Origin: Eledone cirrhosa
Lineage: Eukaryota
Length of the DNA: 64,000 nt
Reading direction: 5' to 3'
NCBI GenBank assembly: GCA_964016885.1
Contig: OZ024760.1
Span: 28,520,001-28,584,000 of the forward strand
A program made the position numbers and the translations under genes. This document shows positions 1 through 12,417 of the stretch, in pieces; position 1 is the stretch's first letter; every line of letters begins with the position of its first letter. A model generated the notes under the pieces. It ran no database searches. It saw nothing but the letters and a program-made list of their open reading frames with translations, and was not told the origin of the DNA.

Positions 1-3000
1 ACTGTCAAGATTGGACCAATAGTTATATTGATAGAAAAGCTGTCAAGATTGGACCAATAGTTATATTGATAGAAAAACTGTCAAGATTGGACCAATAGTT
101 ATATTGATAGAAAAACTGTCAAGATTGGACCAATGGTTATATTGATAGAAAAACTGTCAAGATTGGACCAATGGTTATATTGATAGAAAAACTGTCAAGA
201 TTGGACCAATGGTTATATTGATAGAAAAACTGTCAAGATTGGACCAATGGTTATATTGATAGAAAAACTGTCAAGATTGGACCAATGGTTATATTGATAG
301 AAAAACTGTCAAGATTGGACCAATGGTTATATTGATAGAAAAACTGTCAAGATTGGACCAATGGTTATATTGATAGAAAAACTGTCAAGATTGGACCAAT
401 GGTTATATTGATAGAAAAACTGTCAAGATTGGACCAATGGTTATATTGATAGAAAAACTGTCAAGATTGGACCAATGGTTATATTGATAGAAAAACTGTC
501 AAGATTGGACCAATGGTTATATTGATAGAAAAACTGTCAAGATTGGACCAATGGTTATATTGATAGAAAAACTGTCAAGATTGGACCAATGGTTATATTG
601 ATAGAAAAACTGTCAAGATTGGACCAATGGTTATATTGATAGAAAAACTGTCAAGATTGGACCAATGGTTATATTGATAGAAAAACTGTCAAGATTGGAC
701 CAATGGTTATATTGATAGAAAAACTGTCAAGATTGGACCAATGGTTATATTGATAGAAAAACTGTCAAGATTGGACCAATGGTTATATTGATAGAAAAAC
801 TGTCAAGATTGGACCAATGGTTATATTGATAGAAAAACTGTCAAGATTGGACCAATGGTTATATTGATAGAAAAACTGTCAAGATTGGACCAATGGTTAT
901 ATTGATAGAAAAACTGTCAAGATTGGACCAATGGTTATATTGATAGAAAAACTGTCAAGATTGGACCAATGGTTATATTGATAGAAAAACTGTCAAGATT
1001 GGACCAATGGTTATATTGATAGAAAAACTGTCAAGATTGGACCAATGGTTATATTGATAGAAAAACTGTCAAGATTGGACCAATGGTTATATTGATAGAA
1101 AAACTGTCAAGATTGGACCAATGGTTATATTGATAGAAAAACTGTCAAGATTGGACCAATGGTTATATTGATAGAAAAACTGTCAAGATTGGACCAATGG
1201 TTATATTGATAGAAAAACTGTCAAGATTGGACCAATGGTTATATTGATAGAAAAACTGTCAAGATTGGACCAATAGTTATATTGATAGAAAAACTGTCAA
1301 GATTGGACCAATGGTTATATTGATAGAAAAACTGTCAAGATTGGACCAATGGTTATATTGATAGAAAAACTGTCAAGATTGGACCAATGGTTATATTGAT
1401 AGAAAAACTGTCAAGATTGGACCAATGGTTATATTGATAGAAAAACTGTCAAGATTGGACCAATGGTTATATTGATAGAAAAACTGTCAAGATTGGACCA
1501 ATGGTTATATTGATAGAAAAACTGTCAAGATTGGACCAATAGTTATATTGATAGAAAAACTGTCAAGATTGGACCAATGGTTATATTGATAGAAAAACTG
1601 TCAAGACTGGACCAATAGTTACATTGATGAAAAACTGTCAAGATTGGACCAATAGTTACATTGATAGAAAAACTGTCAAGATTGGACCAATAGTTATATT
1701 GATAGAAAAACTGTCAAGATTGGACCAATAGTTATATTGATAGAAAAACTGTCAAGATTGGACCAATGGTTATATTGATAGAAAAACTGTCAAGACTGGA
1801 CCAATGGTTACATTGATAGAAAAACTGTCAAGATTGGACCAATAGTTATATTGATAGAAAAGCTGTCAAGATTGGACCAATAGTTATATTGATAGAAAAA
1901 CTGTCAAGATTGGACCAATGGTTATATTGATAGAAAAACTGTCAAGATTGGACCAATGGTTATATTGATAGAAAAACTGTCAAGATTGGACCAATGGTTA
2001 TATTGATAGAAAAACTGTCAAGATTGGACCAATGGTTATATTGATAGAAAAACTGTCAAGATTGGACCAATAGTTATATTGATAGAAAAACTGTCAAGAT
2101 TGGACCAATGGTTATATTGATAGAAAAACTGTCAAGACTGGACCAATAGTTACATTGATAGAAAAACTGTCAAGATTGGACCAATAGTTACATTGATAGA
2201 AAAACTGTCAAGATTGGACCAATAGTTATATTGATAGAAAAACTGTCAAGATTGGACCAATAGTTATATTGATAGAAAAACTGTCAAGATTGGACCAATG
2301 GTTATATTGATAGAAAAACTGTCAAGACTGGACCAATGGTTACATTGATAGAAAAACTGTCAAGATTGGACCAATAGTTATATTGATAGAAAAGCTGTCA
2401 AGATTGGACCAATAGTTATATTGATAGAAAAACTGTCAAGATTGGACCAATAGTTATATTGATAGAAAAACTGTCAAGATTGGACCAATAGTTATATTGA
2501 TAGAAAAACTGTCAAGATTGGACCAATAGTTATATTGATAGAAAAACTGTCAAGATTGGACCAATGGTTATATTGATAGAAAACTGTCAAGACTGGACCA
2601 ATGGTTACATTGATAGAAAAACTGTCAAGATTGGACCAATAGTTATATTGATAGAAAAACTGTCAAGATTGGACCAATGGTTATATTGATAGAAAAACTG
2701 TCAAGATTGGACCAATGGTTATATTGATAGAAAAACTGTCAAGATTGGACCAATGGTTATATTGATAGAAAAACTGTCAAGATTGGACCAATAGTTACAT
2801 TGATAGAAAAACTGTCAAGATTGGACCAATAGTTATATTGATAGAAAAACTGTCAAGATTGGACCAATAGTTATATTGATAGAAAAACTGTCAAGATTGA
2901 CCAATGGTTATATTGATAGAAAAACTGTCAAGATTGGACCAATAGTTATATTGATAGAAAAACTGTCAAGATTGGACCAATGGTTATATTGATAGAAAAA

Positions 3001-4858
3001 CTGTCAAGATTGGACCAATGGTTATATTGATAGAAAAACTGTCAAGATTGGACCAATAGTTATATTGATAGAAAAACTGTCAAGATTGGACCAATAGTTA
3101 CATTGATAGAAAAACTGTCAAGATTGGACCAATAGTTATATTGATAGAAAAACTGTCAAGATTGGACCAATGGTTATATTGATAGAAAAACTGTCAAGAT
3201 TGGACCAATGGTTATATTGATAGAAAAACTGTCAAGATTGACCAATGGTTATATTGATAGAAAAACTGTCAAGATTGGACCAATAGTTATATTGATAGAA
3301 AAACTGTCAAGATTGGACCAATGGTTATATTGATAGAAAAACTGTCAAGATTGGACCAATGGTTATATTGATAGAAAAACTGTCAAGATTGGACCAATAG
3401 TTATATTGATAGAAAAACTGTCAAGATTGACCAATGGTTATATTGATAGAAAAACTGTCAAGATTGGACCAATAGTTATATTGATAGAAAAACTGTCAAG
3501 ATTGGACCAATGGTTATATTGATAGAAAAACTGTCAAGATTGGACCAATGGTTATATTGATAGAAAAACTGTCAAGATTGGACCAATAGTTATATTGATA
3601 GAAAAACTGTCAAGATTGGACCAATAGTTACATTGATAGAAAAACTGTCAAGATTGGACCAATAGTTATATTGATAGAAAAACTGTCAAGATTGGACCAA
3701 TGGTTATATTGATAGAAAAACTGTCAAGATTGGACCAATGGTTATATTGATAGAAAAACTGTCAAGATTGGACCAATGGTTATATTGATAGAAAAACTGT
3801 CAAGATTGGACCAATAGTTACATTGATAGAAAAACTGTCAAGATTGGACCAATAGTTATATTGATAGAAAAACTGTCAAGATTGGACCAATAGTTACATT
3901 GATAGAAAAACTGTCAAGATTGGACCAATAGTTATATTGATAGAAAAACTGTCAAGATTGGACCAATGGTTATATTGATAGAAAAACTGTCAAGATTGGA
4001 CCAATGGTTATATTGATAGAAAAACTGTCAAGATTGGACCAATGGTTATATTGATAGAAAAACTGTCAAGATTGGACCAATAGTTACATTGATAGAAAAA
4101 CTGTCAAGATTGGACCAATAGTTATATTGATAGAAAAACTGTCAAGATTGGACCAATAGTTATATTGATAGAAAAACTGTCAAGATTGGACCAATGGTTA
4201 TATTGATAGAAAAACTGTCAAGATTGGACCAATAGTTATATTGATAGAAAAACTGTCAAGATTGGACCAATGGTTATATTGATAGAAAAACTGTCAAGAT
4301 TGGACCAATAGTTACATTGATAGAAAAACTGTCAAGATTGGACCAATAGTTATATTGATAGAAAAACTGTCAAGATTGGACCAATGGTTATATTGATAGA
4401 AAAACTGTCAAGACTGGACCAATGGTTATATTGATAGAAAAACTGTCAAGATTGGACCAATGGTTATATTGATAGAAAAACTGTCAAGATTGGACCAATG
4501 GTTATATTGATAGAAAAACTGTCAAGATTGGACCAATGGTTTTATTGATAGAAAAACTGTCAAGATTGGACCAATGGTTATATTGATAGAAAAACTGTCA
4601 AGATTGGACCAATGGTTATATTGATAGAAAAACTGTCAAGATTGGACCAATGGTTATATTGATAGAAAAACTGTCAAGATTGGACCAATAGTTACATTGA
4701 TAGAAAAACTGTCAAGATTGGACCAATAGTTATATTGATAGAAAAACTGTCAAGATTGGACCAATAGTTACATTGATAGAAAAACTGTCAAGATTGGACC
4801 AATGGTTATATTGACAGAAAAACTGTCAAGATTGGACCAATGGTTATATTGATAAAAC
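1..4858. repeat. 38-bp tandem satellite, about 128 copies, running off the window edge; lies in intron 3 of the TM2D1-like gene
   Basis: Unit ACTGTCAAGATTGGACCAATGGTTATATTGATAGAAAA repeated head-to-tail with few variants and no spacers. Confidence 0.98.
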
Positions 4859-5039: not shown

Positions 5040-5130
5040 GTCCATTTACAGGAAAGATGTCTTGTAAATTTCTGTGAATCATTCTTCAGCCCTCCATGAC
5101 ACGTAACATTAGGGGCCGTTCGACATGTCA
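5040..5130 (-). CDS. TM2D1: TM2 domain-containing protein 1-like, coding exon 3
   Basis: Acceptor ctatattccAG, donor GTAAGT. Translates (V)TCRTAPNVTCHGGLKNDSQKFTRHLSCKW(T). Resembles the recalled TM2D1 segment VSCFPAPNITC...FFKPISC. Phase fits exon 2. Confidence 0.88.
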
Positions 5131-6166: not shown

Positions 6167-6475
6167 CATGGACCTCTTAACTATCTTTTGATCTTATATT
6201 ATATATATATGCCACACTGTAAAGTGGTCATGTAGGTGTCACGATAAAAAGTGCCCAGCACACACTGTAAATGTGGTTGGTGTTAAGAAGGACATCCAGC
6301 TGTAGAAACCAAGCCAAAATCAGTTCTGTGTGAGTGAAACACGGTCCTCTGAGCTGATCTCTCACAAAGGGACAGCCGGCCCTACCCATGCTAGCGTTGA
6401 AAATGGATGTTAAATGATGAAGGTGATGACATCTATAAACATACCAGAAGAGAAATATCTTAAATAGAGACTTAC

Positions 6476-6555
6476 CAATAACAGTTCTTGTTTCTTTATC
6501 ACAGTTCTTGGCCTGTTGTGTGTTTGAATCAATGGCTGGTTCATCACAAAGATAT
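6476..6555 (-). CDS. TM2D1: TM2D1-like coding exon 2
   Basis: 80 nt; translates (Q)YLCDEPAIDSNTQQAKNCDKETRTVI, similar to recalled TM2D1 QYICKDPKINDATQEPVNC. Donor GTAAGT at 6475. Confidence 0.88.
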
Positions 6556-6850
6556 TTACGGTAGAGTTAAGAAATAGAGAAAACTCATGTAGTACAGTGG
6601 TTATAAGTAGTGTGCTGAAACATGTAAGCAGGGTGTGAGGTCCACGTGAGGTTTCATCTATCTCAACTGCCAGCTCACCAATCTATCCCCTATCTGGCTT
6701 TACAAGTGCCCTCTAAAACTCTCTATCCATCATCAGCATTCTCAGTTATCCCACATCAGGGAACCTCAAAGTCTAATACTGTTATATGGTTGTAATATAA
6801 ATATACTCCTCTACCATTTTTTCACGGAACCTTGTCTGGATTAGGTTTAA

Positions 6851-7418
6851 CCCTTAAACATTTAAACCAGCCATATCCGGCCAGAATTCTCTCACCTCTT
6901 TCTGTTCCTCATACTGATGTTAAGGTTTGTTCTCAAATTAAATAATATCAAAATCTCATAGAATCAATATTATGTGAAGTAAAGCCTTTACTGTGAAAAT
7001 ACAATAGTATATAGAGAGTAATGTAAATGTTATGCGAGATATTATGTGAGGTAAAGCCTTTACTGTGAAAATACAATAGTATATATAGAGTAATGTAAAT
7101 GTTATGTAAGATATGTGAGGTAAAGCCTTTACTGTGAAAATACAATAGTATATATAGAGTAATGTAAATGTTATATGAGGTAAAGCCTTTACTGTGAAAA
7201 TACAATAGTATATATAGAGTAATGTAAATGTTATATGAGGTAAAGCCTTTACTGTGAAAATACAATAGTATATATAGAGTAATGTAAATGTTATATGAGG
7301 TAAAGCCTTTACTGTGAAAATACAATAGTATATATAGAGTAATGTAAATGTTATATGAGGTAAAGCCTTTACTGTGAAAATACAATAGTATATATAGAGT
7401 AATGTAAATGCTAAAGGG
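6851..7418 (-). mobile_element. piggyBac-type non-autonomous element (MITE) with internal 60-72 bp minisatellite, copy 1
   Basis: TTAA-CCCTTAAACATTTA ... TAAATGCTAAAGGG-TTGA termini; same family as 30014 and 34317. Confidence 0.8.
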
Positions 7419-7635
7419 TTGATGATCACCAACAACCATTTGTCTGGATCAATGTTTAATGAAATAAATTAATCCCAGATTAACTACAAAGCTGCTAAAT
7501 TCTAAAACTTTTTGTTCCTTGTTTTAACAATTTAATTAATTTGACAAATAACTATTCTGAAATTACATATTCAGGTTAATTAGAAACATAAAACATAGAT
7601 CTATTAAGTAAGTGAAAAAGTTTGATGATCAACTA

Positions 7636-8130
7636 TAGGAGAGTAAGGTGGTGCAGAGCACTAAAAGTTGATGGAAGCCTTGGAGTGGGGAGACCCAAGA
7701 CCTGGGATGAGGTGATAAAAGCTGACCTTGACCAATTGCACCTCTCAAAGGCGATGACACAGGACCAAGACCTCTGGCGTTATGCAGCAATACAGAAGAC
7801 CCGACTTCCCACGGGTACAAGCCGAAGTTGAAAAATATATTCAGTATGCCTCCACCCCTTCCAATGTAAAGTGGTCGTGGAGGTGTCACAACAAAAATCA
7901 CCCAGTCCACACTATAAAGTAGTCATGTAGATGTCACGACAAAAAGCTCTCAGCCTACACTATAAAGTGGTAGTGTAGGCGCCACGGTAAAAAAGCACCC
8001 AGTATTCAGTGTAAATGAGGTTGGTGTTAGGATGGGCATCCAGCTGTAGAAATCAAGCCAAAATCAGTTCTGTATGAACACGACATGGTCACCTGACCTG
8101 GCATTACACACAACAGGATAATCCGTCTAA
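7636..8130 (+). mobile_element. RTE-clade LINE 3' fragment (ORF end plus 3' UTR)
   Basis: RRVRW...KVDGSLGVGRPKTWDEVIKADL...DQDLWR, matching the ORF end at 28288-28929. Confidence 0.8.
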
Positions 8131-8615
8131 CTCAGGCATCTCAAACTGAGGGTTCCCCGAGGGCCACACACGACAACTATTAGGGCTTTCCTGGTGATTT
8201 CCTTCGAATGAAACAGTTCTAGTCCTGTAGAAACTATTTCAACATTATATATATTTATTTATATTTAACACATCAAAAACAATAGGAAAAACATAAGCTT
8301 CACCTACAAAACTAAACGGGTGTAATAGTAAAAAAAAGACGTAGTGCTAGATATAGTAAAGACAGAATACAGACTCGCAGTTAATAAAAATATTCGGAGC
8401 TGGCTATTTTAGTTTCGTAAAACCAGAACCTACATGAGAATTATGCCGATGATGTGTAAATTATATATTATATGTTTGTGAGGCAGGAATGTCTATTGTA
8501 ATAGAGATATAGGAATGGAAGTATAGGTAGAAATATAGACATTAGGTCACGTTTGAAAAAGAAATGAAAATATCTCGTCTTATTCACCGGATTTATATTT
8601 CACACGCTCATCTCT

Positions 8616-8655
<40 letters not shown>

Positions 8656-8657
<2 letters not shown>

Positions 8658-8840
8658 GTTCAAGACCCCGACGGCAGAGCTCAAGCCGTTTCGACGGCTA
8701 TTTCTGGACCAGAAACAGCCGTCGAAACGGCTTGAGCTCTGCCGTCAGGGTCTTGAACATGTTCCTATTACCCACTCTACTATCCAAAGTATCGCGTACT
8801 CTGGTGCGTTATGGTCCACCTGGTTCCTTACCACAATTCG

Positions 8841-8842
<2 letters not shown>
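8656..8842 (+). mobile_element. TA-embedded fold-back element carrying the 3' half of a hammerhead (family P)
   Basis: Near-perfect palindrome 8656-8760 containing GAAACGGCTTGAGCTCTGCCGTC, then a tail shared with copies near 19860, 49860 and 63280; flanked by (TA)n. Confidence 0.75.
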
Positions 8843-8896
<54 letters not shown>

Positions 8897-9140
8897 ATAG
8901 TAGAGTGGGTAATACTTTTTCCTATATATATATATGCACGAGCCGACGGTAGAACACGAACCCTAGACGAGATATTTTCATTTTCTTCAAACGAGACCTA
9001 ATCTCAGAGATAAACCACACACGAGTCGACGAAGGACCTTCGTATGTGCGTGTGTGTGTGTATGTATATATATATATATATATATATAGCATTGATGAAT
9101 ATGCTGGGTCCGTCAACTCATTATTATATATAGGTTAACT

Positions 9141-9431
9141 GGGTGGTGGATTGGCAGTATCAGTAGAGAGTCGGACGCCATGCTTTCCAGCATAGTTACG
9201 TCCCTTTACGGTCTGTGTTCAAATCCCGCCGAGGTTAACTTTGCCTTTCATCCTTACGGGGTCGATAAAATAAAGTACCAGTAATGTACTGGGTAATTGC
9301 TGGCCTTGTGCCAAAAGTAGAAACAATTATATATAGGTTAACTTTGCCTTTCATCCTTACGGGGTCGATAAAATAAAGTACCGGTAATGCACTGGGTTTT
9401 GCTGGCCTTGTGCCAAACGTAGAAACAATTA
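9141..9431 (+). mobile_element. tRNA-derived SINE family A (full copy plus duplicated 3' part)
   Basis: A-box-like TGGCAGTATCAG, B-box GTTCAAATCC, central GCCTTTCATCCTTACGGGGTCGATAAAATAAAGTACCAG, tail ending AGTAGAAACAATTAT; more than ten copies in the window. Confidence 0.9.
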
Positions 9432-9514
9432 TATATATATAGTGACGAAACATAAGTCAATTGCATGAACTCATAATCCTTTATTTACTACTATATGTAT
9501 TTCGATGATAGCCG

Positions 9515-9547
<33 letters not shown>

Positions 9548-9677
9548 AACACGTGTGTACGCAATGGACCCGGTAAAGCAGACGAAATTTTCGTTTACTT
9601 AGGAATAAGTAAAGCTTAGATAGGCTTCCTCAATCACATCCATACACCAGTGAGTTAAAGCTTAGATAGGGCTCTTA

Positions 9678-9708
<31 letters not shown>

Positions 9709-9792
9709 GCAAAGTTTCATTTAAATTGTTGGGTTAACGAGTAAATATTTATAACTGATATAAAAGCACTCAACAAGTATTTGGAGTATATT

Positions 9793-10015
9793 TACGATAT
9801 TAAATAAATGGAAACTATATTTATAAAACCATATTTATTTCATTATATATATTTCAGGGATATCATATTAAAAATATGTTATGCCTTCTTCAGACAAAAT
9901 ACAATATAAACAGTCTTATAAAGAAGGCATAACATATTTTTAATATGATATCCCTGAAATATATATAATGAAATAAATATGGTTTTATAAATATAGTTTC
10001 CATTTATTTAATATC

Positions 10016-10018
<3 letters not shown>
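9793..10018. repeat. Inverted repeat (98-bp arms, 30-nt spacer) overlapping a hammerhead motif
   Basis: 9793-9890 is the reverse complement of 9921-10018. Confidence 0.9.
9836..9901 (-). ncRNA. Minimal type I hammerhead motif, sense to TM2D1 pre-mRNA
   Basis: TATTTTGT-CTGAAGA-AGG...CCT-GAAA-TATATA-TA-ATGAAATA on the minus strand. Confidence 0.75.
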
Positions 10019-10048
<30 letters not shown>

Positions 10049-10134
10049 TTATCCCGGTTTCAATCGGGGGTAACCACAGTAAGTAAGGTACTCAATACAA
10101 AGGGGAGTATAAATGTTTTAATATAGAAAAGCTG

Positions 10135-10185
10135 AGCTTCCTGATGATTTCTCACGAATGAAACAGTTCTATTCCTGTAGAAGCT
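10135..10185 (+). ncRNA. Type I hammerhead motif with full stem III (family Q)
   Basis: AGCTTC-CTGATGA-T-TTC-TCAC-GAA-T-GAAA-CAG-TTCTATTC-CTG-TA-GAAGCT; predicted cleavage after GUA at 10179. Confidence 0.78.
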
Positions 10186-10257
10186 TTTCTATATTAAATA
10201 AAATATATATATATACAATATATTAACAAATGGAAACTATATTTATAAAACCATATT

Positions 10258-10322
10258 TATTTCATTATACATATTTCAAGGACACCAAAGCAAATTATGG
10301 TGCGCTTTCATCAGATAAAATA
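10258..10322 (-). ncRNA. Minimal type I hammerhead motif, sense to TM2D1 pre-mRNA
   Basis: TATTTTAT-CTGATGA-AAGCGCACCA...TGGTGTCCTT-GAAA-TATGTA-TA-ATGAAATA. Confidence 0.78.
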
Positions 10323-10432
10323 GATCAGTTTTATAAACAAATGTTGACATTTTTACTCGAAAATTTTGTTGAGTGCTTTATAACAGTTATAAAAACATTT
10401 GCTTGTATCCCAACAAATTAAATATAACTTCT

Positions 10433-10498
<66 letters not shown>

Positions 10499-10709
10499 CA
10501 GGACTAGAACTGTTTCATTCGAAGGAAATCATCAGGAAAGCCGACTGCCAATGTGATATGGTGGTATTTATACATTTTCTGGTAGTGAGAGGATGGGTGG
10601 AGGTCGTAGGCTGATGGGTTTAAAAAATGGGGATTCTTTGAATAGGGATTTAGAGAAAAATACATAGTGATACAGAATGATACAAATGCAGGCACTCCTA
10701 ATTATTCTA

Positions 10710-10760
<51 letters not shown>

Positions 10761-10830
10761 TATCCAGCGAACCTCCAACCGTCAAGGTTTTTCTTCTGCG
10801 GGTATGTCAACATTTATAAAACAAATTTTG

Positions 10831-10893
10831 TATTTTATCTGATGAAAGCGCACCAAAATTTGCGTTGGTTGCCCTTGAAATATATATAAAATA
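10831..10893 (+). ncRNA. Hammerhead motif, same family as 10258, small deletion near the cleavage site
   Basis: TATTTTAT-CTGATGA-AAGCGCACCA...CCCTT-GAAA-TATATATAAAATA. Confidence 0.55.
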
Positions 10894-10932
10894 ATTATGG
10901 TTTTATAAATATAGTTTCCATTTATTAATATA

Positions 10933-10969
<37 letters not shown>

Positions 10970-11059
10970 AAATGTTTCCTACACTTAAAATGTATTTATT
11001 ATGTGTTTATATTTTCATTCAGTAAGAAGTATTCATTAAGTATTATTATACACACAACT

Positions 11060-11340
11060 ATAAAGTACCAGTAATACACTGAGGTATTTCCTGGCCTTGT
11101 GCTAATAGTAGAAACAATTATTATAGGGTCGATAAAATAAAGTGCCAGTAATGCACTGGGGTATTTCCTGGCCTTGTGCTAATAGTAGAAACAATTATTA
11201 TAGGGTCGATAAAATAAAGTACCAGTAATGCACTGGGGATTTGCTAATAGTATAAACAATTATTATAGGGTCGATAAAATAAAGTACCAGTAATGCACTG
11301 GAGATTTGCTGGCCTTGTGCCAAAAATAAAACAATTATAT
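11060..11340 (+). repeat. Tandem amplification of the SINE A 3' half (about 4 units)
   Basis: Repeated GGGTCGATAAAATAAAGTACCAGTAATGCACTGG...GTAGAAACAATTATTATA. Confidence 0.85.
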
Positions 11341-11431
11341 TATATACTTAGAAAAGTAATAATGATGAGTTTTGGTGATAATAAACGGTTAGAATATATA
11401 TATAGGGACATGGTATAATAAATATTTTAAA

Positions 11432-11795
11432 TATTGTTATATTTGGGGAGGGTCATGTTGTTATATTTGGGGAGGGTCATGTTGTTATATTAGGAGAGGG
11501 TCGTGTTATATTTGTGGAGGGTCATATTGTTATATTTGGGAGGGAGGGTCATATTGTTATATTTGCGAGGAAGGGTCATATTGGTATATTTGTGGAGGGT
11601 CATGTTATATTTGGGTTGAGGGGGTCATATTGTTGTATTTGGGTTGAGGGGGTCATATTGTTGTATTTGCGAGAGAGGGTCATGTTGTTATATTTGTTGA
11701 GGGTCATGTTGTTATATTTGGGGAGGGTTATATTGTTATATTTGGGCAGGGTCATGTTATATTTTGGGGGAGGGGGTCATATTGTTATAATATTG
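11432..11795. repeat. Degenerate ~24-bp minisatellite
   Basis: TTGTTATATTTGGGGAGGGTCATG units. Confidence 0.9.
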
Positions 11796-11969
11796 GGTCT
11801 GATTAAGGGCCAAGGCTAACAATTTTGGGGGAGGGGAACATCGATAAATCGATCACAGTGCATTATTGCCAGACAAAAATATAGTAAAACACATGCAAAA
11901 CAAATACATCGCCGCCGCCACATGATAAAATGAATAATATTGAAGAATTAAATTATAAATAAAGGATAT

Positions 11970-12157
11970 TGTCCCAGCAAGAGATGAGAACAGTGAGGCG
12001 TTTTCCAATTTGGTGAGGGTGTTTTTTCGATGTTCTCATTTATATTAGTGTTACTGGCACCCAACGATAAATTCAGACATTGTAACAACATCAAAATATG
12101 TAAAATATAACCAGAAACAAGGTAATATTTCGCTATCAGCTGGTAGAAACGAGACAT
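11970..12157 (-). CDS. TM2D1: TM2D1-like coding exon 1 (signal-peptide-like N-terminus)
   Basis: MSRFYQ...ILHILMLLQCLNLSLGA...PHCSHLLLG(Q): hydrophobic leader, then C-x2-L-x2-GQ as in recalled TM2D1 CEDLKVGQ. Ends at a U12 donor. Confidence 0.85.
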
Positions 12158-12417
12158 CCTGCCATTAGGTAAAACAACCGAAGCACTACCAAAGAAATTA
12201 CTATAGTTTATAACAACAGTAGAACTATAACCGCAGAATAAAAAGAGTGCATTAGAAAGTTGATGTTAATGAAGTATTAATGAACCGAATAAAAAAATTA
12301 CTAAAGTGTGCTCAATTAAAATAAAGATAAAGAATCAATGACATATATTTATTGAACAATGATTTGTAGAAATCGATGAGTTTTATTGCAGTTGTTTATG
12401 TTAGGTGTTAAATTTTT

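What the first reader, a model, noticed from the sequence alone, without database searches (positions are those of the whole stretch)
6556..11969. U12-type intron with apparent non-canonical AT-AA ends in the TM2D1-like gene
Seen: exon 1 ends GGA CA followed by ATATCCTTT, a perfect U12 AT-type donor. Exon 2 is preceded by TTTCTTAAC (U12 branch site) and TCTACCGTAA, with no AG. Joining after AA restores G-Q-Y-L-C and leaves 11 nt between the branch A and exon 2, typical of U12 introns. The only AC (6562-6561) is too close to the branch and is out of frame. Known: U12 3' site choice is distance-driven and AT-AA introns are rare. Standard gene predictors would likely mis-model this gene.
Basis: partly seen in the sequence, partly recalled or inferred. 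Interest (0 to 1): 0.75.

Follow-up and report, generated by a model that had tools for sequence, protein, structure and literature searches.

The report
AT-AA minor intron in octopus TM2D1
The first intron of an octopus TM2D1 gene ends in AA instead of the usual AG or AC and is cut out exactly there in a transcript contig, likely by the rare 'minor' splicing machinery; this is a real but already known kind of one-letter variation, and the same intron has other endings in other animals.

Summary
Confirmed. Intron 1 (5,414 nt, minus strand, 11969-6556) of a six-exon, 210-aa TM2D1-like octopod gene starts ATATCCTTT and ends TTTCTTAAC-10 nt-AA. None of the 7 equivalent cut positions is GT-AG, GC-AG or AT-AC, and only one keeps the U12 donor. 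DNA contigs of 3 runs (one sample, probably the assembly's source) show the same AA. The genome has U11, U12, U4atac, U6atac and CENATAC matches. Human TM2D1 has an AT-AC minor intron at the same codon position. AT-AA is the commonest non-canonical minor class in animals (823 introns, 1.1%), so this is a new member of a known kind. Added here: metagenome contigs show this same intron as AT-AA in a cnidarian-like group (one matched 136/136 by a spliced contig), and as AT-AC, GT-AG and GT-AT elsewhere. This scan earlier noted AT-AG in a ray's TM2D1 (unchecked). Splicing by the minor spliceosome is inferred, not shown.

The parts
11970..12175 (-). Exon 1 of TM2D1-like gene; CDS starts at ATG 12157; ends in phase 2 of Gln63. 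The 5' limit is only where the transcript contig ends.
   Evidence: contig X4 runs 205 nt past the junction and its first 30 letters equal 11971-12000
11961..11969 (-). U12-type 5' splice site ATATCCTTT
   Evidence: predicted to pair with this genome's U11 and U6atac 5' ends
6556..11969 (-). Intron 1, 5,414 nt, AT-AA termini, phase 2; holds tandem arrays and (TA)n runs
6566..6574 (-). U12-type branch site TTTCTTAAC; presumed branch A at 6567
   Evidence: predicted 10-bp duplex with this genome's U12 snRNA with one A bulged, -9.1 kcal/mol
6556..6557 (-). Non-canonical terminal AA, 10 nt after the branch motif
   Evidence: no differences in DNA contigs of runs X1-X3 over 6420-6787/6788
6476..6555 (-). 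Exon 2 (80 nt), followed by a GT donor
5040..5130 (-). Exon 3 (91 nt). Exons 4-6 lie left of the window at L006:9137-9046, 7835-7762 and 7025 onward (TM2 domain and C-terminus). Introns 2-5 are GT-AG.
   Evidence: the exon 2-3 join is in contig X4; TM2 match beside the window

Best explanation
Intron 1 of this octopus TM2D1 gene is removed between an AT start and an AA end, as a transcript contig shows, likely by the minor (U12) spliceosome. Inferred mechanism: U11 and then U6atac pair with ATATCCTTT, U12 pairs with TTTCTTAAC and bulges the branch A, and the 3' cut is set mainly by distance (11 nt from the branch A). A-type minor introns tolerate any last base, so AA serves, and the nearer AC is skipped because it is too close. 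The intron is old: it sits at the same codon position in human, where it is AT-AC. Its last base has drifted, probably close to neutrally. Shown: signals, junction, machinery genes, orthologous intron. Inferred: which spliceosome acts, the branch nucleotide, the distance rule, neutrality.
For: Junction in contig X4 (864 nt, depth 26.7, 0 differences over 6476-6556; loose ends equal exon 1 and exon 3). Of 7 equivalent cuts only one keeps the U12 donor. AA present in X1-X3. Single copy of the exon-2 region in G000. U12 x1, U11 x2, U6atac x15 and U4atac x1 over Rfam cut-offs, and CCDC84/CENATAC exons. Predicted snRNA pairing. Human TM2D1 intron is AT-AC, listed as U12 A-type and retained on CENATAC loss and in ZRSR2 mutants (PMC8280824 supplement rows). 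Optimum branch-to-3' distance 11-13 nt (PMC3584512 passage). AT-AN tolerance (PMC1635337 passage; PMC1557818 passage). Same intron with AT-AA in 3 distinct metagenome sequences, one matched 136/136 by a spliced contig.
Against: RNA evidence is one contig from one run whose kind is not on record; RNA is inferred from its joined exons. Contigs drop rare variants, so minor acceptors, retention and editing cannot be seen. X1-X3 are one sample, probably the assembly's source, so they are not independent and the AA could be a private allele. No experiment ties the intron to U12. The branch motif has T for the consensus C at one position.
Confidence: 0.92

Rival explanations
1. The AA is an assembly error or a private allele, and the species normally has AT-AC or AT-AG here.
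For: The only DNA check (X1-X3) is one sample, probably the one assembled. The transcript contig cannot test the intron's last base.
Against: Three separate runs each give a 403-404-nt contig with 0 differences over the site, and no other letter is listed at 6556. AT-AA occurs at the same intron in another animal group.
Confidence: 0.04
2. A-to-I editing, which is extensive in cephalopods (recalled), turns the last A (or the first A) of the intron into inosine, so that it is read as AT-AG or GT-AG.
For: Only the host lineage. No raw RNA reads were available to exclude it.
Against: No long complementary partner in the pre-mRNA from 12200 to 5040: the longest perfect stretch is 10 nt near the acceptor and 12 nt near the donor, and the acceptor is largely unpaired in a local fold. 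AT-AA introns splice in human. A cnidarian-like animal splices the same AT-AA intron.
Confidence: 0.02
3. The true cut is one of the six other equivalent positions (for example AT-AT, two bases on), or the major spliceosome removes the intron.
For: Cuts from -1 to +5 give the same mRNA, because exon 2 begins with the same five letters as the intron.
Against: No shifted cut is GT-AG, GC-AG or AT-AC, and all break the U12 donor register. There is no AG after the branch motif. Orthologues with GT donors fix the cut at this register.
Confidence: 0.02

Closest known systems
Human TM2D1 intron chr1:61723787-61724956 (U12, AT-AC), as tabulated in PMC8280824 supplements
   Same: Same gene family and same position (GGA CA | A TAT), AT donor with ATATCC, U12 branch motif close to the 3' end.
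   Different: Ends AC; 12 nt after the branch motif against 10 here; about 1.2 kb against 5.4 kb; branch motif TTCCTTAAC against TTTCTTAAC.
Natural AT-AA U12-type introns: human ABHD18 and PIGB, RASGRP4 and MSH3, 823 conserved animal and 690 plant cases
   Same: Same termini, donor consensus and short branch-to-end distance (ABHD18: 11 nt after the motif).
   Different: Only gene and species. No cephalopod case was found in my paper searches.
TM2D1 intron 1 in a cnidarian-like group (L048, L065/L075, L066)
   Same: Same position and AT-AA termini; a spliced contig (L059) matches the joined L066 exons 136/136.
   Different: 101-170 nt long; branch motif TTCCTTGAC with 9 nt after it; distant lineage.

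Membership tests
U12-type (minor) intron | 5' splice site RTATCCTTT | tested here: met
   ATATCCTTT at 11969-11961; consensus from PMC1635337 passage
U12-type (minor) intron | Branch site TTCCTTRAY that pairs with U12 snRNA | tested here: met
   TTTCTTAAC, 1 mismatch read as G-U; predicted duplex with the genome's own U12
U12-type (minor) intron | Short branch-to-3'-end distance (optimum 11-13 nt) | tested here: met
   11 nt from the presumed branch A to exon 2; optimum from PMC3584512 passage
U12-type (minor) intron | Intron is removed at the predicted ends | tested here: met
   One contig of run X4
U12-type (minor) intron | Minor spliceosome present in the organism | tested here: met
   U11, U12, U4atac, U6atac and CCDC84 matches in G000
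U12-type (minor) intron | Splicing depends on U11/U12/U6atac | not testable with these tools
   Shown only for the human orthologous intron through CENATAC and ZRSR2 data
A-type (AT-AN) non-canonical subclass | AT start with a non-C last base fixed in the genome | tested here: met
   AA in the assembly and in X1-X3; one sample only
TM2D1 / CG10795 (biscotti) orthologues | TM2 domain, N-terminal C-x-x-L-x-x-G-Q-Y-x-C motif, best hits so named | tested here: met
   PF05154 match; 79% identity over 210 aa to O. bimaculoides CG10795-like; groups with octopods 100/98. TM2D2 and TM2D3 were not put in the tree.
U2-type (major) intron | GT/GC donor and AG acceptor | tested here: not met
   None of the 7 equivalent cuts fits

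The most novel reading that the evidence does not exclude
TM2D1 intron 1 is an unusually labile minor intron. It would give a natural series for testing whether AT-AC to GT-AG subtype switches pass through non-canonical intermediates.
Probability: 0.4. Interest if true: 0.45.

Novelty: new member of a known kind. Interest (0 to 1): 0.25.

Why it matters
Modestly. It corrects a gene model of a kind that predictors get wrong: 2 of 5 listed octopod models are broken at this junction. It adds a transcript-supported mollusc case to a catalogued class. The comparative series at this one intron is the more useful part, since it could serve to study how minor-intron ends change.

Tried and rejected
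No RNA holder was listed as such; X4 is taken as RNA only because its contig joins exons 1, 2 and 3. RAD-seq runs X5-X7 laid 0 reads, which is no test. Reads were laid on the exon-2 region only, not across the whole intron, so the junction rests on loose-end letters and not on a reported joint. My searches with exon 4, and protein 1, used a wrong reading frame: their blanks are void, and the one search of protein representatives was lost that way. The other 4 single-exon peptides matched no Pfam family. The Atlas gave no answer. A strict branch-site plus exon-2 pattern found 0 metagenome loci; the looser exon-2 pattern found 77. Dietrich 2005 and 2001 were not held, so their results are taken second-hand from passages. 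A processed-pseudogene origin of the X4 contig was rejected: single genomic match and no such joint in X1-X3. The in-frame alternatives AT-CG (+3 nt), AT-TA (-3 nt) and the in-frame ACs upstream of the branch site were rejected: the contig stops matching at 6556 and covers 6555. An editing duplex was not found. No paper held both TM2D1 and 'minor intron' or 'U12' and 'intron', or 'minor spliceosome' and 'cephalopod'.

Full report
Observation. On the minus strand exon 1 ends GGA CA at 11970 and is followed by ATATCCTTT, the only RTATCCTTT in the window. The far end reads TTTCTTAAC at 6574-6566, ten more letters ending in AA at 6557-6556, then exon 2. The intron is 5,414 nt. The branch motif is the only site in it with at most one mismatch to the U12 consensus. 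No AG follows it, and the AC five letters after it shifts the frame.

Gene. With 10 kb fetched left of the window the gene has six exons and an open frame of 210 codons; introns 2-5 are GT-AG. A TM2 domain match lies in exon 4. The product is 79% identical over its whole length to the O. bimaculoides CG10795-like protein and groups with octopods at 100/98 in a tree of 28 rows that I chose from the hits. The exon-2 region is single-copy in G000. G-Q-[Y/F]-x-C spans the junction in 115 of 123 homologues (these are the 120 best of 814 hits plus three cluster members).

Transcript evidence. Seven runs were listed, none on record as RNA. Run X4 holds one 864-nt contig (depth 26.7) that matches 6476-6556 with no difference. 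Its loose ends equal 11971-12000 and 5101-5130 letter for letter. It therefore joins exons 1, 2 and 3 and is taken as a transcript, with exactly the predicted junction. It was the only X4 contig laid on 6420-6685, but contigs drop rare variants, so minor acceptors and retention are not tested. Seven cut positions give the same mRNA. None is GT-AG, GC-AG or AT-AC, and only the AT-AA cut keeps the U12 donor intact.

DNA evidence. Runs X1-X3 each give a 403-404-nt contig over the acceptor with no difference. They are one sample, probably the assembly's source, so they argue against a consensus error but not against a private allele. Three RAD-seq runs of other samples laid no read, which is no test.

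Machinery. G000 has matches over the Rfam cut-off for U12 (1), U11 (2), U6atac (15) and U4atac (1), and three exon matches to CCDC84/CENATAC on one contig. The donor is predicted to pair with the genome's U11 and U6atac, and the branch site with its U12 over 10 bp with one A bulged.

Orthologues. Supplement rows of PMC8280824 list a human TM2D1 intron as U12 AT-AC, with exon flanks GGGACA and ATATAT, which is the same codon position. Its retention rises from 0.21 to 0.85 after 48 h of CENATAC depletion (one of 13 files was not searched). A pattern for exon 2 gave 77 metagenome loci, 75 of which match a profile of the homologues. Of the 77, 28 hold both ends of an intron at this position and reduce to 17 distinct sequences: 12 GT-AG, 3 AT-AA, 1 AT-AC and 1 GT-AT. 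All but one have RTATCCTT donors; L048 has ATATCTTT. The 12 look like one group of close relatives and the 3 like another, so these are about four lineages, not 17 events. Of the rest, 15 hold only the acceptor (14 AG, 1 AC), 27 have no intron here or are transcripts, 5 have an AG four bases earlier, and 2 are chance. The AT-AA locus L066, once joined, matches the spliced contig L059 at 136 of 136 letters. L059's protein falls in a four-row group with Nematostella (98/91), so the group is cnidarian-like.

Annotation. An O. bimaculoides UniRef model runs through the donor as Q-Y-P-F and stops at 71 aa, which also suggests an AT-type donor in that species. An O. vulgaris model lacks exon 1. The RefSeq models of O. 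bimaculoides and O. sinensis and the Argonauta model are correct. The acceptor letters in these species could not be read.

Mechanism. Shown: signals, junction, machinery genes and the orthologous intron. Inferred from the literature: U11/U12 recognise donor and branch site; the 3' end is set by a distance of 11-13 nt (PMC3584512, passages); the last base of AT introns is tolerant (PMC1635337, passages; PMC1557818, passages and Tables 2-3). The 11-nt spacing here fits, and the nearer AC is too close. Editing of the terminal A is not excluded without raw reads, but no long duplex partner exists in the stretch examined and it is not needed.

Comparison. AT-AA is the commonest non-canonical ending of conserved minor introns in animals: 823 introns, 1.117% (PMC10639083, passages and Table S1). 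Human cases include ABHD18 and PIGB. Switching of the last base between orthologues is documented: 14 of 24 human-mouse pairs in the text of PMC1557818, and 36 clusters with both subtypes in PMC2831892 (passages). Searches for TM2D1 with 'minor intron' or 'U12', and for 'minor spliceosome' with 'cephalopod', found no paper, but per-species tables that I could not see may list this intron.

Verdict. A real, transcript-supported AT-AA intron, very likely U12-type: a new member of a known kind. Interest 0.25. The part worth following is the range of endings at this one orthologous intron.

Noticed in passing
L019, L021, L043, L052 (and L025, acceptor only): In these TM2D1 loci the intron is an ordinary GT-AG intron placed 4 nt upstream of the U12 position (inside the Gly codon). 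This may be a U12-to-U2 conversion with a shift, or a separate gain.
   Followed up: partly
L020, L022, L024, L035, L036, L039, L042, L055, L067, L094 and related loci: GT-AG copies of the intron keep a U12 donor but have decayed branch motifs (mostly 2-3 mismatches) 12-15 nt from the end; possibly on the way to U2 type.
   Followed up: partly
L081: The same intron with GT-AT ends, 1,563 nt; no transcript check.
   Followed up: partly
protein P0073 (Nucella lapillus model): The model begins M-R-K-Y-L-C, as the intron end of this window would read in frame. This may hint at an AA acceptor in a gastropod, but its genomic DNA was not seen.
   Followed up: no
window 1-4854, continuing to about L006:9160: A 38-bp satellite (128 copies in the window, 97% matches) fills most of intron 3 and ends about 25 nt before the exon-4 acceptor.
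   Followed up: no
window 12165-12136, minus strand: An out-of-frame ATG 8 nt upstream of the start codon opens a 9-codon frame that overlaps the CDS start.
   Followed up: no
G000, loci L010-L017 and others: 15 U6atac matches against one U12 and one U4atac; most are probably pseudogenes.
   Followed up: no
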